Position numbers and translations under genes: made by a program. A stretch of 64,000 bases of DNA from the human T2T-CHM13v2.0 reference genome, Homo sapiens: positions 7,648,001 through 7,712,000 of the forward strand of contig CP086569.2 in NCBI GenBank assembly GCA_009914755.4. Reading direction: 5' to 3'. Positions within the stretch are counted from its first letter, which is position 1; the number at the start of each line of letters is the position of its first letter. A model generated the notes under the pieces. It was not told where the DNA came from and did no database searches. It saw nothing but the letters and a program-made list of their open reading frames with translations. Below, piece after piece: positions 7,835-47,800 of the stretch.

Positions 7835-7886
<52 letters not shown>

Positions 7887-7893: not shown

Positions 7894-7899
7894 AGAAAG

Positions 7900-8198
<299 letters not shown>

Positions 8199-9954: not shown

Positions 9955-10043
9955 AACAACATATTTTGGGCATGCTCTTTTTAAGGGTTGGAAGACATAA
10001 TATTTTGATGTGTCCATGCTGCTTAGTGTAACTCAGATATAAA

Positions 10044-11217: not shown

Positions 11218-11547
<330 letters not shown>

Positions 11548-13537: not shown

Positions 13538-14066
<529 letters not shown>

Positions 14067-20570: not shown

Positions 20571-23500
20571 GAAGACGAAGAGTATCACTTAACCTAGGTG
20601 CTGGGCTCTGCAATATGTAATAACCACCTCTCTTGGCAGGGTCTAGAATATGAAGGAGAGTCACATTATTTAGGTTTTAAAGTCAGCAGTATGTCACAAT
20701 TTCTTTGGTGTGCAGGACGCCGCAGGAGAGGAGAGACATATTACCTAGATGTTACACCAAATGATATTTCACAATGTCTTCTGGGGGCTTGACACAGGCA
20801 GAAGAAACAAATCACCTAGCTTATAGGCTAAGAGATATATGATAATATCCCCTGTTGCCAGGTCCAGGCAAAATAGTCACTTTTTATGATTCTAACCCAG
20901 CAATATGTCACAACACACCCATAAAAAGAAATTTAATACAAAAAGTCTCAACACCCGGGTACTAGGCCTAGTAAGAGGCCAAATCTCCTTGTCTTTTAGA
21001 GTGACCCTAATAACTGTGAGTTGGGTATGTATATGAGATTCACAATCTCCCGTGTTTCCTGGACCATTGTATAATACTGTACAACATTTGAAGTCATGTG
21101 TGAGAGTTGCAAACCACTCTGAGGCTTACATGTTCCTATGGATTCACAACCTTACATATTTTCCTAAAGCCAGGTATAATAGTCAAAATTTCTTCTGTAG
21201 GCTGGGGTCAGGAATGAGACCCATTTTTATATTTGTGAGCTGGATCCAGAAGTGAGTCACCATCCCAACTGTGACCAGATCCACATATGAAAGTAACAAT
21301 TCCAATGGTGTACTGCATTCACTTGTTAGACTCAGGACCCTAACAGTGGGCTTTGGACATATAGGGTGGTGGCAGCATTTACTTTCACCTGGGTGTGTAA
21401 TCCAGAGTCCAACTCTGAAATTTTGCTGATCCTTGTCATAAAACTCTGTGTTGTACTTAAGGAGATTTTACATTATGATTTAGTGTTGTAAAGCTCTGTG
21501 AGCTTGGTACAAACATGCAACCCAGGACGTTACCTATTGCCCTAGTCCTAGCAATGAAAGACAGCATATCTCCTATTGGCTAAATCCAAATATAAATTTG
21601 ACAATCATGCATGTAAACTGTAGTAAGTTATATATCATAGTCCCATTTGTGGACAGAAAAACTAACCCAGAGGGTAATATCACTTAGGTCCTCTGACAAG
21701 CAACATGGCACAATGACCTCTCTAGGCAGGGTGTAAGAATTAGAGTCACACTTACTGCATTCTGGACTCAGCAATATGGCACAATCCCACATGTGGGGAA
21801 TAAAAAAGAAAAAAGAACCAGCCAAATGGTAAGAGCCAAAACAATGGGCCCAGGGTATGTCAAAATACCTTCTGGTATTCCGCACAGTCATGAGAGTCAT
21901 GTTATCAGGGTTCTGGGCCCAGCAATATCCCATAATATTCTGGATATAGAGGACCCAGGTAAACGAGTAACAGTATCTGGGTGTCGTACTCTGCAATGTC
22001 TGTTCTTGGCATGGTTCAAGAGAAAAAGGAGAGTCAAATAACCTGAGTCCTGAGCTCAGCAGTACATCAGCATCCCCCCATTGTAAAGACCAAGCAGAAG
22101 AAGAGAATCACTTCATTTAGGTCATGGGCTCAGAGATATATCCTAGTGTCCCCAGTAAGCAGGACCCAGGAAGAAAAGGACAGTCACATCACCTAGCTGC
22201 TTCCCTACTTATATGTCACAATCTAAGAAGTGGGCAGAAAGCAGGCAGAAGAGCCACACCATCTGCATACTGCCTCAAGTAATATCTCACCATGCCCAAT
22301 GAAGAGAGGTTTAAAGAAATAAAAAGAGAATCACACTACCTGGGGGCTGGGATCAGCAATGTGTAATAATTACCTCTCTTTGTTGGGTCCAGGACAAAAA
22401 AAAAGTCATGTCACTTAGGTTTTGCACTCAGTGGTATATCAAAATTTTTTCAGTGGGCAGGATCCAGGCAGGAGGGATGAGTCACATTACCTAGATGCTA
22501 TATCTATCAATATGTCACAGTGTCTCCTTTGGGCAGGGCATGGGCAGGAGAGACAAATCATCTAGCCAACAGGCCTGGAGATATGTGAAAATATTCTCTG
22601 TTTGCAGAGCTCCTACAGAAGAGTCACTATATCAATATTCAAACCCAGTGATATGTAACAATCCCCTTATGAAAAAGGAATTTCAACCAAACAGTCTCAA
22701 CACTGGTTTACTTTGCCAAAGTTATGACACAATCACCTCATTATTAAGGATGACACCATTAACTGTTATCTAGTTGTGCATATGATAGTCAAAATCTAAC
22801 ATGTGTGCTGTTTATTGTATGGCACTCTTTACAACTCCTGAGATGTTTATAAAACATGTATGAGGGTTCCAAAACTCTCTGAGACCTACATGCTTATATG
22901 GATTCATGATCTTACGTATTGCCCTAAACTCAGGGATAACAGTCAACATCTCTCCTATATGCTGGCTTCAGGGATGAGACTACTATTATGCCTGTGACCT
23001 AGGCCCAGAAATTAGTCATCATTTCACCTGTGACCATATTCATTTATGAATGTCACAATTCTAACTTGGTGCTGTATTGACTTGTTAGGCCCAGGACCTC
23101 AACAATGGGTTTTGTAAATGTAGGATAGTAAAAACTTTTATTTTCAACTGAGTGTGTAGGTGAAAGTCACCATTTTAACTTTTTGTTGGGTCCCATTGTG
23201 AACCTTCCTGTACCACTCAAGAAGTTTTTATGATATGAGTTAGTTTTGTAAGCTTCTGTGAGATTTGTACAAATATGCAATGGAAGATCTTTCCTATTGA
23301 CCAAAACCTAGTGGAGAGAGGCAAAATATCTCCTGCTGGTTGAATCCCAATATAAGCTTGATCACCATGTCTTTGAACTGAATCAAGGTATATATCATAA
23401 TCCCACTTGAGGGCAAAAAACTAGGCAGAAGGTTAATATCACTTAGGTGCTGTGCCAAGCAATATGTCGTAATGCCCTATTTAGGCAGGGCCTAGGAAAT

Positions 23501-25192
23501 AGGGTCACATTAGTTGATGGCAGGAGCAAGCAAAATGATACAACCACACATGAAAGAAAGCCAACAAAGTGGTCAGAGACAAAAAAAACCTACAGAATAA
23601 ACCAAAGATATGTTAAACTACCTTCTGTGGCTCTGGCATAGGCAGAAGAGTCATATCATTAGGGAGTTGGGTGGAGCAATATGCTATAATTTTCTCTTTA
23701 TGCACGACCTATGAAGAATAGTAACATCATGTGTGGGCTGGGCCTGAAATATGGCAAAAGTCCTTTTCATGGGTGCTATTCAGCAACAAGTTGAGAGTCA
23801 CATTACCTAAGTGCTTGGCTTATCCATATGTCACAGTCTTCCTATTGTAAAGGCCCAGAGATAAACAGAGACTCACATCACTTAAGTCATGGGCTCAGAG
23901 ATATGGCCCAATGTCACCAGTAGCCAAGGCTCAGGCAGAAAGAGGGAGTCATATTACATAGGTGCTTCTTTATTTAGATATCACAAATTAATATAAGGGT
24001 AGAAACCACGTTGAAGAGCCACATGATCTGGTCCTGCATCCCGAGATGTTCACAAGTCCCCCTTAGAACAGGACCCAGGAAAAAGACACATCACCTAGGT
24101 GTAAATTCCACCCTTATATCATGAAGTTCCTTGTGGACAGGGCCAAGCAGGAAGTCACATCACCTAGGTGATAGGCTCAGATATATGTCATAAAGCCTTC
24201 TTTAAAGCATCACCCTGGCAAAAGAGTACAATCACCTTTTTGCCTGGCCTGGCAATGTGTCACTATTCAAGTGGGCAGGTCCCAAGTAGAAAAGCCATAG
24301 CACCTATATGATAGGCCTGTGATATGTCAAAATGTCCTCTTTTGTGCATGGCCCTGGCATCCTCTTTTAAGTGATGGACACAGTGATAAGTCACAATGAT
24401 ATCTGTGGGCATAGTGAAGGCAAGAATGTAATGTCATCTTGGTGCTGGATCCAGTGATGTCACAATTTTTACTGATAGCAGAGACCAGGAAGAAGAGTCA
24501 TATCACTTCAAAATTGGCCCAGGTAGATATCAAAATTCCATATATAGGTTGGAACCAATCTGAAGAATGAAATTACACAGGTGCTTGGGGAAGATTTATA
24601 TCACATTCACAGTGTAATTAAATTCAAGGGATTAGATTTACAATACTACACATGTCCCGTTTTTAGGTAGGATAGTTGCTCTCATTCATCTTTGATGTTG
24701 AAAGTCCTTACTGTTATTTGAGTATGCATATGAGTGTGCATCATAATTTTCTCTGTGTGCTAGACATTATTATGACAGCTTCTATATAGCCCAAGGGTGT
24801 TATAAAATATCTGTGTTTGTTATAATTTTCTGTGACCATTTTATCAGAAGAAGATCCTTGACAATACTCATGTTGTGACAAAAGTCAAAATTTATCTTAT
24901 TGGCTGGGTCCCCATATTACAGTCATTATCATGTTTGTTAGCTGTGCATAGGTAAATGTCACCATTACCTCTGTGGTTGTTAAGCAGGGAGGACAATCAC
25001 ATCACCTAAATTTTAAGCCAGAATTTTTCCAAAATTCTCTTTGATGGCAAGAGTCTAACAGAAAATTCACAAGACATGGGTGCTAGGCAAAGCTCTATGT
25101 CATAATGTCCCTTGTGGTGAATGTCCAGGAAGGAGAGTAGAGTCATATTACCTAAATCATGGCCCCAGAGATATGTCACAATGCCTCCTGTT

Positions 25193-26457
25193 AATAAATG
25201 GTGCAGGCAAAACTGGCTAGCCATATGCAGAAAGCTGAAACTGGATCCCTTCCTTTCACCTTATACAAAAATTAATTCAAGATGGACTAAAGACTTACAT
25301 GTTAGATGTAAAACCATTAAAACCCTAGAAGAAAACCTAGGCAATACCATTCAGGACATAGGCATGGGCAAGGACTTCATGTCTAAAACACCAAAAGCTA
25401 TGACAACAGAAGCCAAAATTGACAAAAGAGATCTAATTAAACTAAAGGGCTTCTGCACAGCAAAAGAAACTACCATCAGAGTGAACAGGCAACCTACAAA
25501 ATGGGAGAAAATTTTTGCAACCTACTCATCTGACAAAGGCCTAACATCCAGAATCTACAATGAACTCAATCAAATTTACAAGAAAAAAACAAACAACACC
25601 ATCAAAAAGTGGGCGAACGACATGAGCAGACACTTCTCAAAAGAGGACATTTATGCAGCCAAAAAACACATGAAAAAATGCTCATCATCACTGGCCATCA
25701 GAGAAATGCAAATCAAAACCACAATGAGATACCACCTCACACCAGTTAGAATGGCGATCATTAAAAAGTCAGGAAACAACAGGTGCTGGATGGGATGTGG
25801 AGAAATAGGAACACTGTTACACTGTTGGTGGGACTGTAAACTAGTTCAATCATTGTGGAAGTCAGTGCGGTGATTCCTCAGGGATCTAGAACTAGAAATA
25901 CCATTTGACCCAGCCATCCTATTACTAGATATATACCCAAGGGATTATAAATCATGATGCTATAAAGACACATGTACACATATGTTTATTGCAGCACTAT
26001 TCACAATAGCAAAGACTTGGAACCAACCGAAATGTCCAACAAACACAGATTGGATTAAGAAAATGTGGCACATATACATTGTGGAATACTATGCAGCCAT
26101 AAAAAATGATGAGCTCATATCCTTTGTAGGGACATGGATGAAGCTGGAAACCATCATTCTCAGCAAACTATTGCAAGGACAAAAAACCAAACATCGCATG
26201 TTCTCACTCATAGATGGGAATTGAACAAATGAGAACACATGGACACAGGAAGGGGAACATCACACACTGGGGACCATTGTGGGGTGGGGGGAGGGTGGAG
26301 AGATAGCATTAGGAGATATGCCTAATGTTAAATGGCGAGTTAATGGGGGCAGCACACCAACATGGCACATGTATAAATATATAACAAACCTGCACGTTGT
26401 GCACATGTACCCTTAAACTTAAAATATAATAATAATTTTTTTTAAAAAAAGAAAAAG
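25193..26457 (+). mobile_element. LINE-1 3' fragment (ORF2 C-terminus plus 3' UTR and poly-A), L1P-like
   Basis: ORFs at 25121-25873 and 25982-26224 give …[31 protein letters not shown]…[16 protein letters not shown]… and …[19 protein letters not shown]…[18 protein letters not shown]…, which is the L1 ORF2 C-terminus. A canonical 3' UTR (…ggggaccattgtggggtgggggg…cctaatgttaaatggcgagttaatggg…) and an A-rich tail end at 26457. The flanking satellite resumes in phase. Confidence 0.95.
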
Positions 26458-29400
26458 GCCCATGCAACAGAATCATGTCATTTGGATGCAGTGCAGAGAA
26501 ATGCTACAATCTTCACTGTAATCAGTGTTCAGGCGGGAGAGGAGAGACACATAACCTAGATGATGAATCCAGCAATATGTTATGATCTCTTCTGAGGACA
26601 CTGTTAAGACACAAGAGTCAAATAATTAACTATATGTCCAGGTATATGTCAAAATGTCATCTGTGGGCTATAACTAAGGAGGATTATTAAATCACTCAGG
26701 AGATTGGCAAAGATAAATGTCATAATAATACCTGTAAAAAGGTTCAGGGAGGAGAATCACCATCCTGCACATCCTGGCTCCAGGTACAAGGGTCATTATT
26801 CAGCCTTTGATCTGGCCTCACATATATGCTGCAATGCCTCCTGTGAACATGGAGAAAAAAGGAAATTCCCATCACCTGAGTGGGTGCTGGTCAAGTTTAA
26901 TGTCAAAATCCTTGTAGTGTACAGGCCTCTAGAAGAAGAGTTACATCACCTGGATGCTTATTTCAGTGATGTATCTAATCCTCCACCGAGGGCAGGGCTT
27001 AAGCAGGAGAGGAGACAATCATCACCTACGCAATTGGCCTGGATATATATCACAACGGCCCTTATGTTTAGGACCAAGGCAGGAGAGTGAACTCACCTTG
27101 TGCTGGTTTCAGCTGTATGTCACCATCTCTCTGGTGGTCAGGACTCAGTCAAGAGAGAATAAGCATCACCTAGGTGCTAAGCCAAGTGTTATGTTATATA
27201 GTTTTTTATTGGTAGAACACCCCCAAATGAACAGTCACATCACATGGGTGCAGTACCCAGTTATGTGTAACAATGCACCAGAACTGCAAGGCCAAGGCAG
27301 AATAAGGAAGTCACATACTTATATGATGGACCTTGATAAAAGCCACAATGCTCTTTGTAGGCAGGGTTCAGACCAAGATTTTACATCAGCTGAGTGCTGT
27401 GTTCAGAGATATGTAAAAGTGCCCTTGGTCCCATTGCCAAAGAAGGTGTTGTATATCACTTAGTTGCTTGGTGCACATATGTCACAATTTGAACTGTGCT
27501 CTGGGTCTAGAAAGGAGAGTCAAAACAATCAGATGCTGGACAAAGTCATACTTCTCAGTCACACACTCGAAAATGTTCAGAAATACATTTCACAGTCCCA
27601 CACAATCCTGGCTTTGGGTGGGAGAGTCAACATCTACGATTTGGTTTGAAATACAGAAGTCACAATCTCAAAAATGTGCAAGATGCATGTATAAGAACCC
27701 TAATCCCACTTGAGTATTGTGCTCCATTAGTAGAGTCAAAGCACCACAGGTTTGCTGAATAATGGTTCATATGTCACAAAACCACCTGTGGATCTGATTC
27801 ATGTACAAGAGTTACAATTTTGAGATTTTGACTGCTTATGTGTGTGAGAGTTAGTACCTCATTTATAGGCTCTGTTTATGTGTGAGAATGAAAACAGTGT
27901 CAGCTGGGTGTTCATCCAAGACTCAAAATAGCATCTGATTGTTGGTGCCTGTTATAAAACTCTTTGTACCACTGAAGATTTATGTGATATAACTGAGTAG
28001 CACGGTTTTCCATGAATTCTTACAGGTGGGAGGTCTAGGACTTTACCCACGGCTGTAAGAGTGGCAATGAGAGTGGAAATATCTCCTTTGGCTGGGTCAA
28101 TGTATGAAAGTTATTGTTATGCATATTAACTGATTTAACAAATAAGTCTCAATTTTACTTTTGGGTACAGACAAGACAGAAAAGTCACATCATCTGGGTC
28201 CTTACAAGGCATATATTATAATCTCCTCTGTAGGCAGAACCCAGTCAGAAGGCTCATATCACCTGGGTACAATCTGAAATGATATGACATCATGCCCACT
28301 GCATACATAGTTGAGAAAAATAGTGGATAGTCACAGCCCCTAGGTGCTATGCTCAGCAATATATTATATTTCCCTCTCTTGACAGAGTATGGAACAAAGG
28401 GTAGAGTTACGTCTCCTAGATTTTATACTCAGTTGTATGTCACAATTTCTTTAGTGGGGAGGATCCAGGTAGGAGAGGAGATTCACATTATCTAGATGCT
28501 ATACCTAGCAATATGTCACAGTGTCCCCTGTAGGCAGGGCACTGGGTGGAGAGACACATCACCTACCTGGTAGGCCCAGAGATATGTGATAATATCCCCT
28601 GGTTCCAGGATCCAAGCAGAAGAGTCACCTTTTTATTATTCTAACCCAGCGATGATTCACAATGCAAACATGGTAAAGAATTTAAGCCAAAACTTCTCAA
28701 CAACTAGGAGTACTGGGCCTAGAGATATGACACAATCTCTTCATCTCTTAGCATCACACCTTTAACTGCTAGCTTGGGGTGTATGTGAGAGTCACAATCT
28801 CATGTGTTATCTGGATCATTGCATGACACATTCTACAGCATTCAAAGGGTTTATGCAACATGCATGAGAGTAGCAATCCACTCTGAGGCATGCATGGTTG
28901 TATTGACTCACAATCTTATATACTGCTTTAAACCCAGTTATAATAGTCAACATCTCTCTTATAGGGTGGGTTCAGATGGGAGACCAATTATTATGCCTGT
29001 GATCTGGGTCCAGAAATTAGTCACCCTCTCATCTGTAGCAAGATCCACATATCAAAGTCAAAATTCCATCTTTGTACTTTATTTACTTGTTAGACTCAGA
29101 ACTTCAACAGTGGCCTTTGTAAATGTGGGATGGTGACAACTTTGTCTCTCACCTGCAAGTGTAATGAAGAATCATGATCTTACCCTTTTCCTGGGCCATG
29201 TTACAAAACTCAGTGTACCACCCAATAAGTTTATAGAATACGAGTTAGTTTTGTAACATTCTTTGAGTTTTGTACAAATACGCAACTCATAACCTTAACT
29301 GTTGCAGTAAGCATAGAGATGAGAGGCAAAATATCTACTATTGGTGTAATACCAATTTAAATTTGATCATCATCACTCTGAATAGAAGCAATGTAAATTT

Positions 29401-31345
29401 AATATCCAGTTTTTAGGAAAAAACTTGACAAGAGGTTAGCACAAATTAGGTGTTTTGCCAAGCAATATGTCACACTGCCTCCTCTAGGCAGGTGGTAGAA
29501 ATGAGGGTTATATTAACTGGACACTAGACCCAGAAATATAACACAATCCCAAATGTGAAAGAAAAACAGACAATTGATGACAGCAAACACACCTACAACA
29601 TGGGCTCAAGATATGTTAAAATACTTTCTGTTGCTGTGGCACAGGCAGGAGAATTACATCATCCGCGTTACAGACCTAATAATATGCCATAATTCTGTCT
29701 TTATGAAGGACCCAGGCAGCAGAGGAACATCATCTGGGTGCTGGGCCAGCCAATATGTCAGAATTCCTCTTCATAGGGACAGTTCAGGAAAATATTAAGA
29801 GTCATATTATGTAAGTATTGGGCTTAGTATTATTTCACGTTACCCCATTGTAAAGCCTCTGGCAGGAAAACAGGTTCACATCTCTTAGGACATGAACTCA
29901 GGTATATGGCCAAATATCCCAAGTAGGCAGGGCTCAAGCAGAAGAAAAGAGTCATATCTCATATCATGTAGGTGCTTCCCTAGGTATATGACACAATCTT
30001 ACACGTGAGGTGAAAGCAGGCAAAACAGCCACATCACCATGATGTTGGATTCTGAGCTATGTCACAAGGCTCCCTTAGGACAAGACCCAGACAAGAGAGT
30101 TAGAGCAAATAAGTGCAGTGTTTGCCCTTATTTTTCAATGCTGTATGTGTGCAGGACCAGAGCACGAAGTCACATCACCTAAGTAATAGGTCCAGAGATA
30201 TGTCACAATGTCCCACTGAGGCCCTGGTGAAGGGGTACCATTACGTTTGTGCCTAACCTAGCAACATGTCACTATACAGGTAAGCATTACCCAAGCAGGA
30301 GAGCAGAATCCCCTAGATGAAGTCTCAGAAATTTGTCATAATGCACTTTGTAGGACATGGCCATAGCAAAAGAGTACCATCAGCTTTGTGCCTGGCCCAG
30401 CCATATGTCGCTATACCCCACAGTGCACAGGGACCATTATAATGAGGAGATTTATGTCACCTAAGTTGTTGACACAGTCATATGTCACAATAATTTCTGT
30501 AGGCAGGGCTCAGGCAAAAATGTAACATGACCAGTGTCCTGGATCCAGTGATATGTCACAATTCTTACTGAGAGCAAGGCCTAGGCAGGAGAGTCACATC
30601 ACCTAGAAGGTGGCCAAGGTACACATGACAATAACTTACATGGGATGAAACCAGTCTGGATAGTCAAATCACATAGGTGCTAGGCAAATATTTATGTCAC
30701 AGTCACACTGGCAGAAAATTCACTGGATGAGATTTACAATACCACACATATCCTGATTTCAGGACTGACATCTGGCTTCATATATGTGAGATGGTAACAG
30801 TCCTCACTGTCGGCTTGGTGTGTATATGAGACTCACAATTTCACCTTTCTGTTATGTTCTGTTATTACACTCTCTGTACAAGCCAAGGGCTTTATAAAAT
30901 TTCCGAGGCTATTATAATCTTCTGTAACCTTTCTTTAACTGAGAGAGACTTAATCACTCATGTTTCTATAGCAAGTAATGAGGGTCAAAATTACTCCTAT
31001 TTGTGGGGTATGAGAGTCAATACTATGCCTGTGAGTTGTGCATAGTTATATGTCACAATTTACTCTGTGGTAATGAAACAGGCTTGACAGCCAAGTCACC
31101 TAAATGCTGAACCAGAAATTTTCAAATATTCTTGTAGGCAAGTTCCTGGAAGAAAAGTTGCATAACTTCTGGGTTACACCCAGATGTATGGCACAATGCC
31201 CCTTTTAAGCAGTGCCTAGGCAGAAGAGGAGAGTCATATAATCTAAATGACTGGCCAAGACATGTGCAACAATGCCTTCTGTTGAAAGGACCAGGCAAGA
31301 GAGTCATGACATTTGCATGAAGTGCTTAGAAATGCTACAATCCCC

Positions 31346-31424
31346 AAGGCAGAGGTTGTAGTGAGCCGAGACTGCAGCACTGCACTGCAACCTAGGTGAC
31401 AAAATGAAAGAAAAAGAAAAAAAC
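31346..31424 (+). mobile_element. Alu 3'-end fragment with target-site duplication
   Basis: aggcagaggttgtagtgagccgagactgcagcactgcactgcaacctaggtgacaaaatgaaagaaaaagaaaaaaa is flanked by the direct repeat tacaatcccca / attacaatcccca. Confidence 0.8.
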
Positions 31425-32518
31425 ATTACAATCCCCAGTGGAAGCAGGATCCAGTCAGAGGAGGTGAGACAGGTAAACTAGATGATGGATTCAGAGACAT
31501 TTTACAATCCTTCCTGAGGATATTGTTAAGACAGGAGAGTCAAATCACAAATGTGACCAGCTGAGGTATATGTGCAAATCTCATTTGTGGACTGCACCTA
31601 GGCAGGATTATTAAGTCACCCAGGAACTGGGCAAATGTATATGTCACAGTAACACTAGTGAAATGCTCCAGAAACAGGAGTCACCTTCTTGTATATGACC
31701 TGGCTCCAGATTTAAGAGTCATGATTAGTCCTCTTATCTCATCTCAGGTATATGGCAAAATATCACCTGTGTGCAGAGAGCAAGTGGGAAGGTCACCACA
31801 CCTGGGTGGGTGCTGGTCCAGTGAGATGTCACAATCCATCTTCTGGGCAGGACCCTGGAAGAAGCATCACATCAGCTGGATACTGTTTTTAGTGATATAT
31901 CAAAATTCCACCTGTGAGCAGGGCTTAAGAAAGAGAGGAGGGTCACTTCACCTAGGCAATTGGCATAGATATATGTCACAATGGGTGCTATGTGCAAAAC
32001 CAAGGTATAAAAGTGACCACACCTTGGTGCTGGGTTTATCAATATGTCACAATCTCCCCTGTGATCAGGTCAAGACAAGAGAGTAGAAACATGACCTAAG
32101 TGCTGAGCAAAGTGATATGTTGTTACAAAGCTTCTCATTGGTAGAACCCAAAAGGGAGAGTCACAGCACCTGGGTGCAGAACCCAGTTATGTGTCTTAAT
32201 GCACCATAAGTGCAGGGCCAAGGCAGTAGAAGGGAGTCACAGTGCAGTTTGTAGGCAATCCCAGGCACCTATGCTTAGGTGTATGGTTCAATTATGTCAC
32301 AGTTTTGTCTGTGGTTATGGCCTAAAAAGGAGAGTCCAGTTATTCAGAAGCTAGGCTAACTTTTGTCTTAAGCGCACACCAGGAAATATTCAGATATAAG
32401 TTTCACAGTCCCATGAAAGTCCAACATTTGAGTATTTGAGTCAACACACCCTATCAGTTGGGTTGAAGTAGAGGAGTCACAATCTCAACAGTGGGCAAGA
32501 TCCATGTATAAGATGCCC

Positions 32519-33457
32519 AATTCCACTTGAAGATTGTGTTCCAGTAGGGGAGTCACAGCCTCACAGGTGTGCTGAATTATGCATCACCAAAAGACCCGGG
32601 GATCAGATCCAAGTATGAGAGGAACAGTTTCAAACTTTGACAGCTCTTTTGTGTGAGATTTAGTACCTATTTTTTTGGCTCTGTTCTTGTGAGAGAATGA
32701 CAGTCGGGTCAGCTGAATATATATCCAAGGGTCTCAATAGCATCAGATTGCTGTCCCTGTTATGAAATTATTTGTACTACTCAGGCTTTATGTCATATGC
32801 CTGAGTGTCATAGTTTTCTGTAAACTTTATAAAATTAGTAGACACATTTCTTTACTTATGGTCATAAGACTGGTTATGAAAGACAAAATATCTCTTCTTT
32901 CTGGGTCCAGTTATAATAGCTGTATTTATCCATGTCAGCTGAACCCAGATCTGTCACTGTTTCTCCTGTGCGCAGAACCAAAACAGGAGAGTCTCATCAC
33001 CAGGATTCTAAGCTCACAATACATTATAATATCTTTTTCAGGCAGTGCCAAGTCAGAAGAGTCATGTCATCTGGGTACAGCCTCAAGGTGCTAGCCTCAG
33101 CAATATTTAATAATGCCTTATTTCGCAGACTCCAGAATAAAGAGGAGAATTGCATTATTTAACTTTTGCATTCAGCACTATGTACCTATTTCTTTAGTGC
33201 ACATTACCTAGGCAGGAGAGAGAAGTGACATTTCCTAGATGCTACATTAAAAGATGTCACAATGTTCCTTGGGAGCAAAGCACAGGTAAAATAGACAAAT
33301 CACCTAGGGGATACTCTTGGAGATATGTGATAATATTTCTTGTTGGCAGTGCCCAGGCAGAAGAATGCACATACAGGAAACAATTTAAGCAAAAGCTTTA
33401 ACACGTGGCTACTAGGCCCAGTGATATGACACGATCTCAATGACCCAATATCTCATC
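32519..33457. other. Single-copy spacer at the centre of the inverted duplication; the orientation switch (fold-back junction) is at ~33455-33465
   Basis: Left-arm block A starts at 32474-32518 (gagtcacaatctcaacagtgggcaagatccatgtataagatgccc). Its reverse complement appears at 33458-33502 (gggctcttatacatggatcttgcctattgttgagattgtgactcc). From there the sequence runs as the reverse complement of what lies upstream of A. Sequence 32519-33457, which ends in a J-type block, has no mirror copy immediately adjacent. Confidence 0.7.
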
Positions 33458-34555
33458 AGGGCTCTTATACATGGATCTTGCCTATTGTTGAGATTGTGAC
33501 TCCTCTACTTTGGCCTAACTAATAGACAGGATTGATTCACATACATGAAACCGGGATTTGTGTGGGATGTGAAAATTATTTCTGAAACTTTCTTAGCATG
33601 TGATTGGGGCAGGTAACTTTGCCAAGCACATAAATAACCTGTTTCTCTTTTCTAGGCTGAGATCACAGATGAAATTGTGCCATATGTGGAACAAGCACCT
33701 AAGCAATATACAATACTTTCCTTGACTCTGCCTAAAAAGGGCACCTTTATATATCACTGGGACCATAATCAAGATGATGTGAATTACCTGCCTGAAGCCT
33801 GCCTGCAAAGACAATTGTGTCCTATAACTAGGTCCATCACATAAGTGATGTTACTCCTTTGTACTGCCTTGACCCTGCAGTTACAGTGCATTGTGACACA
33901 TAACTGGGAACTTCCTCCAGGTTATGGGATTCTCCTTTTTGTGTTCTGCCAACAGGAAGCATTGTAACATATCACTTGGTTCAGAACCTAAGGTGATGTT
34001 TCTTCACTTGTGCCTGGGTTCTGACCACAGGGAGATTGTGACATAGCTGAACCCACTGCCAACATGAGGTCACTCTCCAGCCTTGGTACTGTACATAAGT
34101 CAAATTTGGACATACATCTAAGCCAATTGCCTAGGTTAACTGAGTCTCACCTCTTTCCAAAGTCATGTTCACAGGGGGGTTTTGATGTCTGTGAAACCAG
34201 CATCCAGGTGATGTGACTCATCTGCCAAGGTTCTACCCACAAGGTGGATTGTGATATCTCACTGGAGGCACACCCACATAGGTGATGTGACTTTCTTGCA
34301 TTCTCTGACCAGAGTTGATACTGTGCCATACAATTGAGATGATAACAAAAGCCTAATAATAGCTAATATGGCTGAAGCAAGGATATGTGCAGCATGGTGA
34401 CTCTTATTCTTAAACCCTTGCACAAGTTTAACTGTGACACATACCTTTGCCCAGCTCTTGAGTGATTTGATAGTTCTGCCTAGATGTAGCCCACAAATGA
34501 GATTTTGACAAATACCTGGGCCAAGCACCTTGGTGATTTCACTCTTGCTATCTTA

Positions 34556-38883
<4,328 letters not shown>

Positions 38884-41800
38884 ACTCTTGCTATCTTAAC
38901 AATGTCCTCAGGGGGTATTGTAACATATTTCCAGACACATCATCTAGGTTACATGACTTCCCTCTCCTGCCTGTGCCCAGCTCCCTATGGTAATTGTAGC
39001 ATTTCTAAACACTACATCCAAATATGACTGTTTTGTCTGAGCTCTGTCAACAGGAAGTATTGTGACATATTTTTGGGCCAAAGATTTAGGTGATATGACT
39101 CTCCTCTTCTGCCTGGACATTCCCTACAAGGGACATTGTGCCACAGAGCTGGATCTAGCACACAACTTATGTGACATTTTTGACAGGGCCTGCCTACAAA
39201 GAGAATATTGGAATATGTATGGTCCAGCATTTAGGTGATAAGACCATTCTGCCTGCTTTATAACCACAGAGAATACTGTAACAGATGTCTAGGCATGGCT
39301 CACAGAAATGATAATATCTCTCATATGTGTACTCAGCCAATAAAGGATATTTTGACACTTAAAACTAGATTTAAGGACATGTGTGATGTCCTGTCTCACC
39401 TTCTTCTACAAAGGTCACAAAAGATTACAACACTCATACATATTTTAGAAGGTCTTTGGGTTATACAGACAGAGTCAAAGCAGGGCTCAGCACATAGGTG
39501 AAATTGTGAGTCTTGTATGCACACCCAGCTGACAGAAAGAAATGAACGAAAGGACTGGACACGGATGAAATTGTGACATATACCTAAAAAACATCTAGGT
39601 GTTATGACTTTCTATTTCTGCCTGAGCACTGCCTATTTGTGGCATTGGGCCATATCTCTGAGCCCATGACCTAAGTGATGTGAGTCTCTCATTCTGTCTA
39701 AGCCTTTACAATGGGAAGATTGTGTTGTGTTGATGAGCCCAGCACTTAGGTAACATGACTTTCATCGTATTGCCAAACAACACCCACAAGCAGGAATTTT
39801 GCTGTAGTTCAGAGCCTCACACCTGGATTATGTTACACTTATGCCTAGGTAATGCATAAAGAGAATTTCAGCATATTCCTGGGCCTAGCACACTTGTGAT
39901 GTGACTCTCCTGCCTGTGCCAGAGCCAGAGAAGGTATTTTGAAATATCTTTGGCCCATTCCATAGGTGTTTTGGGTCTTCTCACTTTGCTCGGTTTCTTC
40001 TACATGAGATTGTGTCATATTGCTGGCTCCAGATCCCAGTTAATGTGACATTCTTTCCTACATCCTGCCTAGACAAGACATTGTGTCATATTTTTTGCTA
40101 TAGCACCTAAGTGATATCAACTTTCTGCCTACTTTTTTGCCCACAAATTTGATTATGACATATACCTTTCTTCAGTTCAAAAGCCTGATGATCACGCTTC
40201 TATTGGGATTCAGCCAATAGGAGATATTTTGCCTTTCACGACTTTAGGTCAGTAGGTAAAATCCTTCACTGCATATTTGAACAAGCTTACAAAATTTTAC
40301 AATACTAACTCATCTCACAAAAACTTACTGGGTGGTACAGAGAATTTCATAACAGCGTCCAGAAAAATGTTAATATCATGACTCCACAACACACTCAGGT
40401 GAAAGTAAAAGTTATTACCATCCTACATCTACAAAGCTCATTGTTGAGGTCCTGAGTCTAATAAGTAAATACAGCTCATAGATGAAATTGTAACTTTTAT
40501 CAAAGAGTCTGGCCACAGGTGGGATGGTGGCTCAATTCTGGACCCAGCTCACAGGTCTAATAATGTTCTCATCCCTGAAACCATCATATAAGAGAGATAT
40601 TGACTGTCATATCTGAGTTTAGTGCAATATATAAAATTGTGAATCCATATAAGCATGTAGGTCTCAGCGAGGTTTCAACTCTCAAGTATGTTGTATAAAG
40701 TTCTCAAATGTTGTATAGAGTTTCATACAATGGCCATCACCCACATGAGTTTGTGACTAACATATACACAACTAGGTAACAGTTAATGGTGTCCCCCTTA
40801 AAGTTGAGGAGATTGAGTCATACCCTTGGCCTGGTACCCCTGTGTTGAGACTTTTTGGTTTAAATTGTTTTCCAGAAGAGCATTTTTACCTATCAATGGA
40901 TTAGAATCATAATAATGTGACTCTTCTGCCTGAGGCCTGAAAACGGGATATTTTCACATATCTCTGGGACTATTGGCTAGGTAATATGTCTCTCCTGCCA
41001 CTGCCCTTCCCATAGGAAACTCTGTAACATATTGCTAGATATAGCATCTAGGTAATGTGACTCTGCTCTCTTGCCTGGATCCTGCCCACTGAAGAAACTG
41101 TGACATATCACTGAGAGCAAAACCTATGTGACATTAATGTTGTCTTTGTCCTGGACTCTATCAAGAAAGGAAATTGTTACATGTTTCTGAGCCCAGCACC
41201 CAGGTGTTGTGATTTTCTTTTTTTCTGCAAACTGTTTACATTGGGCCTGGTGACATATTATACGTGAGGCTGTACCCAGGTGGTATGACTCTTCTGCCTG
41301 GTTTCTGCCCAGAAGTTAGATTCTGACATATAACTAGGGAAGCACCTAGTTGATATGACTGTCCTTTTCTTCGTGGGTCCTTCATACTGGGAACACTGGG
41401 ATATATCTCTGAGCCCAAGACTGAAGTGAAATGACTCATTTCCTGCCTAGTCTTTACAATAAAGGGATTGTGACATATTGCAGAGCCCAGAACTCAGGTT
41501 ATTTGACACTCCTTATTTTCTGGAATCATTCCTATCACCAGAATTTTTGGCCTATTGCAGGGCCCAGCACCCATGCAATGTTCCTCTTTTGCCTGGGTCC
41601 TGCACACAGAGAGATGTATGGCATATTGCTGGGGCCAAAACCCTGATAATTTCCTGTCCAGAACAAAACATTATCTCATGCCTCATGACTGTCCTGGAGC
41701 CACAGAAGGTATTTTGACACATCCGCGGCCCATCATATAGGTGTTCTGATTCTCATCTTTTGTCTGGGTTTCTTTCACAGCTGGGATGGTTTTGTATTGC

Positions 41801-44800
41801 TGAGTCCAGCACCAATTTAATGTGACTCTAATTTCTATACCTTGCCTAGGGAGGGCATTATGACATATTGCTTGGCACAGCACCAAAGAGATATTACCCT
41901 TCTGTGTAGTTTTTTGCCCACATATGAGACTGTGACATATACCTTACTTCAGATCACAGGCATGATGATGAAACTTATATTGGAATCAGCCAATAGGAGA
42001 TATTTTGCCTTTCATCACTAGGCTTAGGGCAATAGATAAGGTTCTGGTTTGCATATTTGTATGAAGCTCACAGAACTTTACAACAATAACTCATAACGTA
42101 TAATCTCTTTGGGTGGTACAGAGAGTTTCAAGAGAAGAACCAGTAAAATGTTCAGATTGGGGTTCTTGATTATGTACCCAAGTGAAAGCAAATGTTGTTT
42201 CCATCCCACATGGCCAAAGCCCAGAATTATGGTCCTGAGTCTAAAATGTAAATACAGTATGAAGTTGGAATTTTGACCTTCCTCTGTGGATCTGAACACA
42301 GGTGGGATGCTGAGTCATTTTTACGTCTAGCTCACAGGCATGATAATGGATCTCATTCCTTAACCCAGCCTACAGGAGAGATATAAAACCTAGGTTTAGG
42401 GCAATAAGTAAGATCTTGAATCTATACTAGCATGTAGGGGTCAGAGTGGTTTGCCACTCTCATGCATGCTGTATAAGACCTTCAAATGTTGTAGAGTGTC
42501 ATACAACAGCCCAGGAAATGTGCAATTGCGACTCTCATATACAAACCCAGCCCACATTTAATGTTGTCAACATCAAAGTCAAAAATATTTGGCATATTAC
42601 TAGGCCTAGTACCCAAGTGTTGTGACCTTTTGGATTAAATTTTTTTCCCACGGGTGCATTGTGACATATCACTGGGTTACAATTATAATAATGTGACTTT
42701 TCTGCCTGGGCCCTGCCAGCAGGGCAAATTATCTCATATCTCTGGGCCTATAAGCTAGGTGATTTGTCTCCCCTCCCTGTGCACTGCCATCAGAAGACAT
42801 TGTGAAATATTGTTTGGCTTAACATCTAGGTTATGTGATCTCTTCTCTGGCCTGGGTCTGCTCACCAAAAAAGTTCTGACATATCGCTGATTGCAAAACC
42901 TAAGTGATGTGACTCTTCTTCATATTCTAGACTGTGCCAATCAAGGGGATTATTGCATATTGCAGAGCACAGCACCTATGTGGAGTGACTCCCCTTTTTC
43001 TTCTTTCCTGTCTACGTTGGGCTTGGGAACATATTATTTGAGGCTATACCCAGGTGATGTGACTCTTCTGAATAGGCACAGCCTACTAAGGAGATTATAC
43101 TCAGCACCCAGGTGATGTGACTCTCCTGCCTTTTCCCTGTTCTCAGGTGGAATTGTAACATATATCTTGGTTAAGCACACATGCACAATAATAACTCTTG
43201 TACTTGGACTCAGACAATAGAGTTACTTTATCTCTCAGATCCAGTCTTAAACCCATGGGTAAAATACTGGATTTTTCACTTTTACAAAGTTCATGAAGGA
43301 TTATAACACTCAGTGTATCATATGAAGTCTTAATGGTACAAAGAGTGTCATAACAGAGAACAGCAATGAGAGGTGAATGGGACTTTTGTATGCACACCTA
43401 GCTGAAATGTTTGTCATTCTCACACAGAACAGGGCCTAGGAATGAGGTACTAAATCTCACATATAAAAAGCAGTCAAAAGATGAAATAATTACTCTCATT
43501 CAGGAATCTGATTCACAGGTGGTTTTGTAACATTTGAACCATGATTAAGCACACTGTGGTGCTCTGATTCCCCTGCTGGAACACAGTTTTCAAGTGGGAT
43601 TGGGGATCTTATACATGGATCTGGTTCAATGTTGAGATGGTGACTCCTTACTTCAACCCAGCTCATAGAAAGAATTGACTCACATAAACAAAACTAGGAC
43701 TTGTGTGGGATGTAAAACTTATTTCTGAACCTTCCTGAGAGTATGATTCGGACAAGGTAACTTTGCTCAGCACATGAATAATTTGATTATCTTTTCTTGA
43801 CCCAGACCACAGAATAAATTGTACCATATGTGAAACAGGCAACTAAGAAATAGATCACCTCTTTCATGGCTCTGCCTACAATGGGAACCTTTATGTATCA
43901 CTGGGACCATCACCCAGGTGATGTGAGTTATCTGCATGAAACCTGCCTACAAAAAGAATTGTGTTTTATATCTAGGTCCATCACATAATGGTCGTGGCTC
44001 CCTGACACTGCCTTGGCATAACTTGGCAGTAGCTAACTTGGCAGCACATAACTACATACTGCACACTGGTGATGTGATTCTTCTTTTTGTGTTCTGCCAA
44101 CAGGAAGCATTGTAACATGTCACTTGCCTCAGCGTCTAGGTGATGTTCCTTGGTTTTTGCCTGTACCTTGATCACAGGGAGATTGTGACATAAAGCTGGG
44201 CTGAGCACGAACGTGAGGCCACTCTCCAGCTTTAGTACTGCACAGAACAGACATCGTGACATATCTAGGCCAATCACCTCGACTAAGTGTGGCTCCTTTC
44301 TTACCAAAGTCCTGCCCAGAGAGGGGGTTTTGATATGTCACTGAAATCAGCATCCAGGTGACATGACTCCTCCACCAGGGTCCTTCTCACAAGGTGGATT
44401 GTGACATCTCACTGGAACTGCACCCACTTCGGTGATGGGACTTTCTTTTTTTTTTTTTCTCTCTTGCCACAAGTGATATTGTGCCACATACCAAAGATTA
44501 TAACAGAAGCCTAATAACAACTCATATGCCTGGAGCCCAGGACTTGTGCATTATAGTGGCTCCTAGTCTTAAGTCTTTCCATGAGAGTAATTGTGACATA
44601 TACCTTTGTGCAACTACTGAGTAATTTAATAATTCTGCCTAAGTATAGCCCATAAATAAGATTTTGACAGATTCATTGGCCAAGCACCTTGGTGCTTTGA
44701 CTGAGGTATCTTAAAAATGTACTCAGAGGAGATTGTAACATATTCCTGGACTCTTCATCTAGGTTACATGACTCCTCTTTTGCCTGTACCTTGCTTCCTT

Positions 44801-47800
44801 TGGTACTTGCAGCTTTTCTAAACACTGCATCCAAATGATTTGACTCCTTGCCTGGGACATGTCAACAGTAGGCATTTTGACATATTTTTGGGCCCATCAT
44901 TCAGGTTGTATTACTCTCCTCTCCTGCCTGGACACTGCCCACAAGGGACATTGTGCCACAGAGCTGGATCTATCACACAAGTTTTGTGAGATTTCTGATA
45001 GGACACTGCCTACAAAAAAAAAAAATTGAAATATTTCTAGCTCAGCAATTGATGATGTGGCTGTTCTGCCTGCTTCACAACAACAGAGGGAATTGTAAAA
45101 TATACCTCAGCATGGCTCACAGGCATAATAATGACTCTCAAATGTGGACTCAGTAAATACAGAATATTTTGACCCTTATAAGTAAGTTTAGGGACATGTG
45201 CGATGCCCTGGATCTCCTTCTTGTACAGCTGTCACAAAAGATGACAACACTCACGTATATTTTACAAAGTCTGTGGACTATACAGACAGAGTCAAAGCAG
45301 GGCTCAGCACTCAAGTGACATTGTGAGTCTTGTATGCACACAGCCAGCTGAAAGTGAGGACTATTATCATCTCACATGGATGAAGGTAACTGTCACACAT
45401 GAAAACAGGACATGTGTGGTATTGTAAATCTTATCTTTGGAATTTTCTGACAGTGTGATTGTGATATAAATCTTTGCTAAGCACCTGTGTAATTTGACTC
45501 ACAAGATTTGTTCCAGCCCACATATGGGATTATGATACCTACCAAGGCCAACATCGAGGTGATATGACTCTCCTGCCTGGTCGTATCTTTCAGTAAAGAT
45601 TGTGACATGTCCCTGGGTCTAGCATCTTGGTGATGTCACATACTTTCCTATGCCAGGTGCCCCAAAATTGTTGTGACATGTTTCTGTGTCCACCACACAG
45701 TTGATGTAAGTCTTCTCTCTGAAATGGGTTCTGTACAACAGAAGGATAGTGACGTATTTCGAGAACAGGCACACAGGAAAGGGTATTCGTTTGCCAGTGG
45801 ATCCCCAAAGGAGGGCATTGTGACATATGTCTGGGCCTATCACCTAGGTTCTGTGACTCTCCTCCTTGGGCTTTTCCAACCTTAAGAGTTACATATTTCT
45901 AGCCCAGGCACACAGGTGATGGTATTCTTTTGCCAGGGCTCTGCTTCATAGTGGACATTGTGGCATATCTCTGGGCCTATCATCTGGGTGAAGTGACGGC
46001 CTCCTTGAGCCCTACACATATGGGGCATTGTGGCATAATCAGAAAACTTGCATCTAGTGTGATATTTCTCTCTTGGCTGGGTGCTGCATTAAGAGAGTCT
46101 TTGACATGTCTTGGGACACAGCCCCCAAGTGATGTTGCTATTCTGCCTGGTTTTTTTCCACATATTACATCGTGACATATTCCTAGGGAAGCACATATGT
46201 GATATGCCTCTCCACTTCTACCTGAGCCCTGTCTACTGGGACATTGGGACATATCTCTGAGCCCATGACCTAAATGATGTGACTCTCCTTTTCTGCCTGG
46301 GCGTTCATAACAGGATTTTGGAACATTGCTGAAGCTAGCACTTAGGATATGTGACTCTCTCCTTTTACCCAAACCTGGCCCACAGGAAAGAAATTTTGAC
46401 CTATTGCATTGCCCAGCACCCAGATGCTGTTAATCATCTACTGGAATCTGCATAAAGAGCTAATTATGACATATTTGCATATTGCTGGTCCCAGCACCCT
46501 TATGATGTGACTTTCCTGCTTGTGCTGGAGCTACTGTAGGTATGTTGACATATCTTGGGCATATTATTTAGGTATTTTGGCTCTCATAACTCAGCTGAGT
46601 TTTTTCCACATGTGGGATTGTATCATATTGCTGGGTCCAGCATGCAGTTAATGTGACTCAATTTCCTATACCCTGCCTAGAGAAGACATTGTGACATATT
46701 TCCTGGCACAGCATCAAAATGATCTTACACTCCTGCCTAGTGTTTTGCACACATATGTAATTATAATATATACCTTACTTCAGTTCACAGCCATGATGAT
46801 CAAACTTACATTGGGATTCAGCCAAAAGAAAATATTTTGCCTTTCATTGTTAGGCTTGTTGAAATAAGTAAGGTCTTGGGTTGCAAGTTTGTACCAAGCT
46901 CACAGAAGCTTACAGCACTAAATTATATTGTATAAGCTCTTTTGTGGTAGAAATTTTCATAACGTGGTCCAGCAAAAAGCTCAGATTGGGACTTTCTATT
47001 ACACACCCAGGTGAAATTAGAAGTTGCCACCATCTCGCATTACAAAGCCAACTGTTGAGGCTCTGAGTCTTAAACCCTCACACAGGGGTTTATGAAATGT
47101 CACTAAAAGGAGCTTCCAGGTGATGTGACCCTTCTCCCAGGGTCCTGCCCACCAAGGGAATTGTCACATCTCACTGGACCCGCACCTACATAGGTGATGT
47201 GACTTTCTTGCCTTCTCTTTGACCACTGGAGATATTGTGCCATTTATCTGAGGCCATAACAAAAGCCTAATAAGAACTCATAAGTCTGCAGCCAGGACAT
47301 GTGCAGGATGGTGTGTCTTATTCTTAAACCTTTCCAGAAGTGTAATTGTATATACACCTTTATACACTACCTGAGAAATTTAATAATTCCATGTAAGTAT
47401 AGCCCACAAATGAGATTTTGACAAATACCTGTGTCAAGCACCTTGTCGATATGACTGTGCTACCTTAACAATGCTTTCAGGGGGAATCACCACATATTTC
47501 TGGATGTATTATCTAGGGTACATGACTCTCATCTTTGGCCTGTACCCAGGTTCCTTTAGTAATTGTAGCATTTCTAAACATTGAATCCAAATGACATGAC
47601 ACTCTCTTGTGGACTGTCTCAATAAGAGGGATTTTGACATATTTTTGGGTTCAGCTTTTATGTGACATGACTCTCCTCTCCTCTCCTGTCTGGATACTGA
47701 GCACAGTGGAATTTGTGCAACAGAGCTGGATTTAGCACACAAGGTATGTGATATTTTGGACAGGAGACTCCCTGTAAACAGAATATTGGAATATTTCTGG

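What the first reader, a model, noticed from the sequence alone, without database searches (positions are those of the whole stretch)
32474..33502. Asymmetric fold-back junction: orientation flips at ~33455-33465, leaving a ~940-bp single-copy spacer
Left-arm landmark A begins at 32474-32518. Its reverse complement sits at 33458-33502, immediately after a J-type block that ends …gatatgacacgatctcaatgacccaatatctcatcagg. Right of that point the sequence is the reverse complement of what lies upstream of A, not of J. The two arms therefore meet head-to-head with an offset of about 940 bp (32519-33457 is single copy). An inverted duplication with a short asymmetric spacer is the classic footprint of fold-back inversion, by replication template switching or hairpin-capped break repair. 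The exact junction (catcagg|gctcttatac) can be inspected for microhomology.
Basis: partly seen in the sequence, partly recalled or inferred. Interest (0 to 1): 0.7.

Follow-up and report, generated by a model that had tools for sequence, protein, structure and literature searches.

The report
Orientation switch in old beta-satellite-like array
The flip at about 33.45 kb is real, but it is the meeting point of two roughly 22-kb arms of a very old inverted duplication of a decayed beta-satellite-like repeat array in primate DNA, a known kind of structure and not a fresh fold-back rearrangement.

Summary
Repeat monomers run only on the + strand from about 10.0 kb to 33439 and only on the − strand from 33455 to about 61.3 kb. 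This is the only strand switch in the window.

The DNA is primate-type. The repeat is a diverged satellite with a modal 71-bp monomer, about 69% identical to published human beta-satellite monomers, arranged in multi-kb higher-order blocks.

- **"Spacer":** 32519-33457 is not single copy. It is array sequence with at least four paralogues.
- **Arms at the junction:** they are not sister copies. They are 72-73% identical, the right block is 80% identical to 18554-19635, and sisterhood appeared in 0 of 300 bootstraps.
- **Outer edges:** mirror symmetry is colinear there and runs into non-satellite flank, with the same Alu at the same site in the same old L1 fragment at about 80% identity. So flank plus array underwent an inverted duplication tens of millions of years ago.
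- **Later changes:** the arms have since shifted in register and acquired transposon insertions.
- **Breakpoint:** it can only be placed within 33440-33454, so microhomology cannot be read.

This matches what I recall of the inverted beta-satellite blocks described in the 19p12 zinc-finger cluster, and strand switches are common in diverged satellites. Interest is low.

The parts
8701..10000 (+). Left non-satellite flank that is mirrored on the right: an old L1 fragment with an old Alu (9622-9968, − strand) inserted in it
   Evidence: Inverted alignments 8701-8938 to 63483-63250 (81.5%) and 8944-10413 to 62647-61186 (71%). Same Alu at the same site, about 80% identity in the L1 part. No satellite monomers here.
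10001..33439 (+). Left arm of the beta-satellite-like array (71-bp monomers, all on + strand). Contains later insertions: L1 fragment 25187-26433 and Alus 11249-11545, 13533-13833, 20270-20565
   Evidence: 71-bp periodicity, strand-specific k-mers, motif map, monomer HMM. 22.2 kb of array after removing the L1 fragment.
32474..32518 (+).
   Evidence: 40 of 45 identical to the reverse complement of 33458-33502. Further copies at 16165, 19592 and 27657 (+) and at 43605 and 53777 (−).
32519..33439 (+). It is really the last roughly 0.9 kb of the left arm, with paralogues elsewhere but no close (75% or better) mirror partner
   Evidence: BLAST paralogues at 68-72%. + strand monomer hits 32948-33438. 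Best-partner table.
33440..33454 (.). Breakpoint interval, 15 bp (ATGACCCAATATCTC) that cannot be assigned to either arm
   Evidence: Left-paralogue profile alignment ends at 33439 and right-paralogue profile alignment starts at 33455. Base-level alignments.
33455..34555 (-). Junction-proximal block of the right arm (Rx). It is inverted, and its closest relative is 18554-19635
   Evidence: 78.6% by BLAST, 80.4% in the multiple alignment, clade with 100% bootstrap. − strand monomers.
34556..38883 (-). Later L1 insertion with an internal 5' inversion. It interrupts the right arm and is not the cause of the flip
   Evidence: Perfect 15-bp target-site duplication at 34541-34555 and 38884-38898, and the array is continuous across it. 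ORF2p residues 990-1275 and 429-549 on the − strand and residues 143-330 plus the endonuclease N-terminus on the + strand.
38884..61300 (-). Remainder of the right arm (all monomers on − strand), with an L1 fragment at about 56771-58700
   Evidence: Mirror partners of left-arm blocks at 75-80%. 21.6 kb of satellite after removing L1s.
61301..63483 (-). Right non-satellite flank, the inverted duplicate of 8701-10000. Contains the matching Alu at 61618-61933 and a 600-bp extra segment at 62647-63250. Cut off by an L1 3' end at 63494-64000

Best explanation
The junction at 33440-33454 is where the two arms of an ancient inverted duplication meet head to head. What was duplicated was a segment made of an old L1 fragment, an Alu and a beta-satellite-like tandem array. 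The array already contained differentiated multi-kb higher-order blocks when it was copied.

Shown:
- One strand switch in the window.
- The monomer family and its 71-bp period.
- Each block subtype has a member in both arms.
- The non-satellite flanks are true inverted duplicates.
- The sequences abutting the junction are not sister copies.
- The L1 beside the junction is a later insertion.

Inferred:
- The duplication happened tens of millions of years ago. The flank is about 80% identical, giving a Jukes-Cantor distance of about 0.23. The duplicated Alu limits the age to primate evolution.
- Afterwards each arm changed independently by unequal exchange or deletion within the array. This shifted the order of blocks: left arm A-B-C, right arm read from outside inwards A'-C'-B'. 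Alu and L1 insertions and heavy CpG decay followed.
- Whether the present junction is the original join or a secondary deletion breakpoint cannot be decided.
- The original event may have been a fold-back or template switch, or an inverted segmental duplication. The sequence no longer records which.
- No present-day function is implied. It is heterochromatin-type repeat DNA.
For: - Primate-type transposons: L1 ORF2p matches with E down to 9e-165, retroviral GP41, Alus read directly from the sequence.
- 71-bp periodicity in every repeat block and none in the flank. Modal monomer spacing 71 bp, and a consensus from 109 monomers.
- The consensus matches published human beta-satellite monomers (supplement of bioRxiv 10.1101/589531) in one orientation only: 47-51 identical columns, scores 45-53 against 3.4 +/- 5.1 for shuffles.
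- Strand map with no exceptions.
- Best inverted partners are 75-80% identical against 69-73% for best direct partners.
- Tree with three 100%-bootstrap clades. Two of them are left/right pairs and the third holds two copies from each arm.
- Colinear mirrored outer edges: 8701-13521 against 63483-58747. The Alu insertion site is shared.
- Net satellite length is similar in the two arms, 22.2 and 21.6 kb.
- Strand switches are documented as common in diverged satellites, and beta-satellite arrays contain more than 200 inversion breakpoints (Altemose et al., bioRxiv 10.1101/2021.07.12.452052).
- Beta satellite is recorded in 19p12 between zinc-finger genes (PMC3018141; 10.1101/589531). Primers for the 19p12 SNP rs8105767 read as this monomer family.
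Against: - The block order in the right arm is not the mirror of the left arm (sums of paired coordinates are about 63.4k, 81k and 72k). A single clean palindrome-forming event therefore does not explain the present layout without further rearrangements that I infer but cannot reconstruct uniquely.
- If the ancestral array alternated B-type and C-type blocks, some left/right pairs could be paralogues and not true mirror copies.
- The chromosomal location (19p12 or elsewhere) and the species could not be tested with these tools.
- The description of the 19p12 blocks as inverted, 25-30 kb and symmetrical rests on my memory of the Eichler et al. 1998 abstract, because that paper is not held.
Confidence: 0.8

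Rival explanations
1. A fold-back inversion (replication template switch or hairpin-capped break repair) copied the sequence immediately to the left of a roughly 940-bp unique spacer. The junction is then the direct, readable footprint of that event.
For: The orientation flips sharply. The nearest inverted match is 949 nt apart. Landmark A matches at 40 of 45 positions, and for that 42-nt core the junction copy is nominally the closest, with 4 mismatches against 5-7 for the others. The window as a whole is an inverted duplication.
Against: - The neighbouring arms are only 72-73% identical over about 1 kb and fall in different 100%-bootstrap clades. They were sisters in 0 of 300 replicates.
- The spacer has at least four paralogues.
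- Mirror colinearity does not start at the junction.
- 15 bp at the join cannot be assigned.
- There is no excess hairpin potential.
Confidence: 0.05
2. The present junction is the original centre of the ancient inverted duplication. It has been preserved since the event, and only the interior of the arms was reshuffled later by unequal exchange and conversion.
For: After removing obvious transposon insertions the two arms have similar net lengths (22.2 and 21.6 kb of satellite). The outer flanks are roughly equidistant from the junction (my arithmetic on the coordinates).
Against: Unequal exchange inside an arm should leave the junction-proximal sequences as mirror partners, and they are not. 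The last roughly 1.15 kb of the left arm (32305-33439) has no partner at 75% or better in the right arm. That fits a later deletion or rearrangement at the centre.
Confidence: 0.25
3. A simple two-break inversion of part of a once uniformly oriented tandem array, with no duplication.
For: Strand switches of this kind are common in diverged satellites. A switch at an arbitrary repeat phase is what an inversion breakpoint would look like.
Against: The unique flank outside the array is present on both sides in inverted orientation, with the same Alu at the same site. An inversion cannot create that. Block subtypes occur once per arm.
Confidence: 0.05
4. Assembly artefact: a chimeric join of two different satellite blocks, or a fold-back read artefact.
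For: Satellite regions are prone to misassembly. No read data could be checked.
Against: Fold-back read artefacts give near-identical arms, and here the arms differ by 20-30%. The flanks are mirrored at matching distances. There are no gaps or N runs.
Confidence: 0.03

Closest known systems
Inverted beta-satellite blocks between zinc-finger gene duplicons in human 19p12 (Eichler et al. 1998, Genome Res 8:791, pmid 9724325)
   Same: Diverged beta-satellite-type monomers in complex higher-order blocks. Two arms of roughly 22-28 kb in opposite orientation with largely symmetrical content. Old age, in early primate evolution. Beta satellite in 19p12 is confirmed by papers I could read. A 19p12 amplicon (rs8105767) carries the same monomer type.
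   Different: I could not place the window on a chromosome. The rs8105767 PCR primers are absent from the window, so if it is 19p12 it is a different block. The details 'inverted, 25-30 kb, symmetrical' come from my memory of the abstract, not from a text read here.
Strand switches (inversion breakpoints) in diverged satellite arrays of the complete human genome (Altemose et al., bioRxiv 10.1101/2021.07.12.452052)
   Same: A sharp change of monomer polarity inside a satellite domain, accompanied by transposon insertions and divergence. Beta-satellite arrays are reported to hold more than 200 such breakpoints.
   Different: Here the switch is the centre of an inverted duplication that includes unique flank, not just an inversion inside an array. 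The array is far more decayed than the acrocentric and chromosome 1 arrays discussed there.
Fold-back inversions and inverted duplications with a short spacer (breakage-fusion-bridge, template switching, annealing between inverted repeats, e.g. PMC6103520)
   Same: A head-to-head join of inverted copies with an asymmetric offset at the centre.
   Different: In those cases the arms next to the junction are copies of each other and the junction can be read for microhomology. Here the neighbouring arms are not sister copies and the junction is too diverged to read.
Large genomic palindromes kept alike by arm-to-arm gene conversion, such as the human Y-chromosome palindromes (from general knowledge)
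   Same: Two long inverted arms around a short non-mirrored centre.
   Different: Those arms stay above 99.9% identical. Here the arms are 71-81% identical and register-shifted, so there is no sign of continuing arm-to-arm conversion.

Membership tests
Beta satellite (Sau3A family, BSR) | Monomer sequence related to published beta-satellite monomers | tested here: met
   The window consensus against five published human monomers gives 47-51 identical columns of 71-75 and scores 45-53. Shuffles give 3.4 +/- 5.1 and the wrong strand gives 4-9. Divergent published subfamilies share 55 of 69 positions with each other. It is a distant relative.
Beta satellite (Sau3A family, BSR) | Tandem monomer of 68 bp (68-69 bp in the literature) | tested here: inconclusive
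   Modal spacing is 71 bp (40 of 109 monomers), range 64-80. The autocorrelation peak is at 71 bp. This is close to but not equal to 68. The alignment to published monomers needs 2-3 inserted bases.
Beta satellite (Sau3A family, BSR) | A Sau3A site (GATC) in nearly every monomer | tested here: not met
   0.14-0.15 GATC per 71 bp in both arms, no more than in the non-repeat flank (0.195). The consensus has GGTGCTGG where published monomers have GGTGATCA.
Beta satellite (Sau3A family, BSR) | G+C-rich (47-50%) | tested here: not met
   Array GC is 40.9-41.6% and CpG observed/expected is 0.10. This is consistent with long decay of a once richer sequence, but that is inference.
Beta satellite (Sau3A family, BSR) | Monomers organised in higher-order repeats | tested here: met
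   Multi-kb blocks recur at 65-80% identity. Block subtypes form well-supported clades.
19p12 inverted beta-satellite junction blocks | Two blocks of tens of kb in opposite orientation with symmetrical higher-order content | tested here: met
   Arms span 10.0-33.44 kb and 33.46-61.3 kb, holding 22.2 and 21.6 kb of array sequence. Block subtypes are paired between arms. The order of blocks is shifted and is not a perfect mirror.
19p12 inverted beta-satellite junction blocks | Location between KRAB zinc-finger gene duplicons on human 19p12 | not testable with these tools
   No human genome collection is available. No zinc-finger gene lies in the window. Junction sequence searches of metagenome and prokaryote genome contigs found nothing. 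The only circumstantial link is the rs8105767 primer similarity.
Fold-back inversion with short unique spacer | The sequences on the two sides of the junction are each other's closest relatives | tested here: not met
   72.7% between neighbours, against 80.4% for Rx with 18554-19635 and 76.3% for the left neighbour with 49040-50133. Sister grouping appeared in 0 of 300 bootstraps.
Fold-back inversion with short unique spacer | Spacer is single copy | tested here: not met
   32519-33457 matches at least four other places at 68-72% and carries satellite monomers.
Fold-back inversion with short unique spacer | Microhomology or a blunt join at the breakpoint | tested here: inconclusive
   Homology to paralogues ends at 33439 on the left and starts at 33455 on the right, and 15 bp are unassignable at 70-80% identity.
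Simple inversion within a tandem array | No duplication of unique flanking sequence | tested here: not met
   The flank consisting of an old L1 fragment and an Alu is present at both ends in inverted orientation.

The most novel reading that the evidence does not exclude
The 15-bp interval 33440-33454 could be the preserved founding junction of the inverted duplication that created this class of inverted beta-satellite blocks. It would then have been copied along with the blocks when the surrounding gene cluster expanded. The same junction would be found in all paralogous blocks and in Old World monkeys. The length-preserving permutation of blocks between arms would record a regular mode of satellite turnover inside inverted repeats.
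Probability: 0.1. Interest if true: 0.35.

Novelty: already known. Interest (0 to 1): 0.15.

Why it matters
It matters little beyond correct annotation. The window shows how an ancient inverted duplication of a satellite array looks after tens of millions of years: a sharp strand switch, paired block subtypes in the two arms, duplicated unique flanks, shifted register and later transposon insertions. The practical lesson is that inside a satellite any + block will match any − block. An inverted match next to a strand switch is therefore not evidence that the two sides were copied from each other. The test is whether they are each other's closest relatives, and here they are not. If the locus is one of the 19p12 blocks, the junction could serve as a marker for tracing the expansion of that zinc-finger cluster.

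Tried and rejected
- Rfam scan of the whole window: no RNA family.
- Tandem Repeats Finder did not report the 71-bp array because the monomers are too diverged. Autocorrelation and an HMM were needed.
- Coding explanation rejected. The period is not a multiple of three, and ORFs inside the array have no Pfam family.
- The L1 next to the junction as the cause of the flip: rejected, because it is a clean insertion with a 15-bp target-site duplication.
- Hairpin at the junction: rejected (z = -0.14).
- Independent copies of the junction: exact 31-mer searches in metagenome and prokaryote genome contigs found nothing. No ORF spans the junction, so the protein-based contig look-up was not usable.
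- Literature: Eichler et al. 1998 and Waye & Willard 1989 are not held. Full-text searches for monomer strings mostly hit unrelated primers. No supplement is held for PMC2655687. A search for the phrase 'inverted beta-satellite' found nothing.
- The comparison with the BSR consensus recalled from memory was replaced by a comparison with published monomers.
- I could not derive a unique history for the block order in the two arms.
Full report
**What the window is.** The sequence is mammalian and almost certainly primate.
- ORFs match human LINE-1 ORF2 protein very strongly. 34781-35641 on the − strand matches residues 990-1275 with E = 9e-165. 36957-37322 on the − strand matches residues 429-549. 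38149-38718 on the + strand matches residues 143-330.
- An L1-type endonuclease domain lies at 37724-38098 on the + strand, and a retroviral GP41 envelope domain at 1061-1594 on the − strand.
- Several 290-bp elements read as Alus.
- Self-comparison shows many multi-kb repeats at 65-80% identity. They are direct within each half of the window and inverted between the halves.

**What the repeat is.**
- Every repeated block has a periodicity of about 71 bp, with a half period of 36-38 bp and multiples at 146-147 and 218 bp. The non-repeat flank has none.
- Strand-specific k-mers assemble into two related cores, GAGATATGTCACAAT and GGAGAGTCACATCACCT.
- A consensus from 109 monomers is GCCCAGAAATATGTCACAATGTCCTCTGTGGGCAGGACCCAGGCAGAAGAGTCACATCACCTAGGTGCTGG, with modal spacing 71 bp.
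- Compared with published human beta-satellite monomers from the supplement of bioRxiv 10.1101/589531, the consensus shares 47-51 identical columns in one orientation only. Scores are 45-53, against 3.4 +/- 5.1 for shuffled controls and 4-9 for the wrong strand. Divergent published subfamilies share 55 of 69 positions with each other.
- The array is 41% G+C, has CpG observed/expected of 0.10 and carries only 0.15 GATC sites per monomer.
- It is therefore a distant, decayed relative of beta satellite. It meets the sequence and higher-order criteria but not the Sau3A-site or G+C criteria, and its 71-bp unit is close to but not the classical 68 bp.
- No Rfam family and no Pfam family are present in the array.

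**Checking the observation.**
- A motif map and a monomer HMM agree. Monomers are on the + strand only from 10.0 kb to 33438 and on the − strand only from 33460 to 61.3 kb. No base is covered by an opposite-strand hit at E<=0.1. This is the only strand switch in the window.
- Landmark A and its reverse complement match at 40 of 45 positions, and shuffled cores find nothing.
- The local inverted repeat extends to about 1 kb at 72-79%, with the innermost arms 949 nt apart.
- Profile HMMs built from the paralogues of each side end at 33439 on the left and start at 33455 on the right. That leaves 15 bp, ATGACCCAATATCTC, that belong to neither (base-level alignments).
- The claim that 32519-33457 is single copy is wrong. 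It matches at least four other places at 68-72% and contains monomers.
- Landmark A recurs four times in the left arm and three times in the right arm.

**Testing the fold-back reading.** A fold-back predicts that the two sequences abutting the junction are copies of each other. I aligned all eight copies of the roughly 1.1-kb block type that lies right of the junction.
- They form three clades, each with 100% bootstrap support.
- The block right of the junction (33459-34555) groups with 15203-16208, 18554-19635 and 43603-44702. Its best identity is 80.4%, to 18554-19635.
- The adjacent left block (31427-32518) pairs with 49040-50133.
- The two neighbours are 72.7% identical and were sisters in 0 of 300 replicates.
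- The present junction has no unusual hairpin potential (z = -0.14).
- The L1 at 34556-38883, 1.1 kb to the right, is a clean later insertion. It has a perfect 15-bp target-site duplication and the array is continuous across it, so it did not cause the flip.

**What did happen.**
- Best inverted partners are consistently more alike (75-80%) than best direct partners (69-73%). Two of the three block clades consist of one left-arm copy and one right-arm copy. The array was therefore already differentiated when it was copied in inverted orientation.
- The outer edges are colinear mirror images: 8701-13521 against 63483-58747.
- That symmetry runs out of the satellite into unique flank. The same Alu sits at the same site in the same old L1 fragment and is followed by the same sequence and satellite start. 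Identity is about 80% in the non-satellite part.
- A simple inversion cannot produce this. An inverted duplication of flank plus array is required.
- From about 20% difference (Jukes-Cantor about 0.23), and given that a primate-specific Alu was duplicated, I infer an age of several tens of millions of years. This is an inference that depends on the assumed substitution rate.

**What does not fit a simple palindrome.**
- The interior is not a mirror. The left arm reads A (11.5-13.5 kb), B (16.3-24.0 kb), C (23.4-32.3 kb). The right arm, read from the outside inwards, reads A' (60.8-58.7 kb), C' (56.8-49.2 kb), B' (47.0-39.6 kb), then a further B-type fragment that ends at the junction.
- Net array content is nearly equal, at 22.2 and 21.6 kb.
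- The last 1.15 kb of the left arm has no partner at 75% or better.
- I infer later unequal exchange or deletion within the arms, possibly including the centre. The present junction may therefore be secondary. I put about one chance in four on it being the original join.
- The alternative that B-type and C-type blocks alternated in the ancestral array, which would make some pairs paralogues, cannot be excluded.

**Comparison with what is known.**
- Strand switches are documented as common in diverged satellites. Beta-satellite arrays on chromosome 1 and the acrocentric chromosomes hold more than 200 inversion breakpoints (bioRxiv 10.1101/2021.07.12.452052).
- Beta satellite is recorded in 19p12, interspersed with the zinc-finger gene cluster (PMC3018141; 10.1101/589531).
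- From memory, the abstract of Eichler et al. 1998 describes 25-30 kb blocks of inverted beta-satellite repeats with symmetrical higher-order structure at the duplicon junctions, and dates the cluster to early primate evolution. That description fits this window closely, but the paper is not held, so this remains a recalled lead.
- One independent link exists. The genotyping primers for rs8105767 (ZNF208, 19p12) printed in PMC5762523 read as this monomer type. The extension primer matches 43045-43064 with two mismatches, while the PCR primers are absent. The same family therefore occurs in 19p12, but this window is not that amplicon.

**Verdict.** The strand switch is real and well placed. The fold-back footprint with a unique spacer is not supported. 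The structure is the centre of an old, rearranged inverted duplication of a decayed beta-satellite-like array, which is a known kind of feature in primate genomes. Microhomology cannot be assessed. Interest is low.

Noticed in passing
window 34556-38883: L1 insertion with a perfect 15-bp target-site duplication (ACTCTTGCTATCTTA at 34541-34555 and 38884-38898) and an internal 5' inversion. ORF2p residues 429-1275 are on the − strand and residues about 1-330 on the + strand. This is the pattern expected from twin priming.
   Followed up: yes
window 9-6826: Endogenous retrovirus provirus. Direct LTRs at 9-960 and 5849-6826 are 87.2% identical. An envelope (GP41) ORF lies on the − strand at 1061-1594. 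There are 91-bp tandem repeats inside each LTR (726-895, 6590-6756) and a 111-bp tandem duplication at 5280-5498.
   Followed up: partly
window 7539-8197: Two Alus in the same orientation (7539-7812 and 7905-8197) separated by a (GAAA)n microsatellite at 7815-7899.
   Followed up: no
window 10044-10844: A tandem duplication of about 415 bp (10044-10459 and 10459-10844, 83% identical) right at the left edge of the array. The mirrored right edge seems to have one copy only.
   Followed up: no
window 20270-20565, 11249-11545 and 25187-26433: Two Alus and an L1 ORF2 fragment are present in the left arm but absent at the corresponding points of the mirror partners in the right arm. They were therefore inserted after the duplication and could be used to date it.
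   Followed up: partly
window 43045-43064 (− strand): The extension primer for the telomere-length and HBV-associated SNP rs8105767 (ZNF208, 19p12; PMC5762523) matches here with two mismatches. That SNP evidently lies inside a beta-satellite-like monomer of a paralogous block.
   Followed up: partly
window 62647-63250 and 63494-64000: The right flank has a 600-bp segment with no counterpart in the left flank. It is then cut by the 3' end of another L1 that runs off the window, so how far the mirrored flank extends outward is unknown.
   Followed up: no
window 13824-14065: An AT-rich simple repeat, (AT)n-like with 33- and 65-bp periods, next to the Alu at 13533-13833. It lies at the boundary between two array blocks.
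   Followed up: no
window 32557-32948: About 390 bp inside the array with no recognisable monomers, although paralogous copies exist in other blocks. The higher-order unit therefore contains a degenerate or non-monomeric stretch.
   Followed up: no
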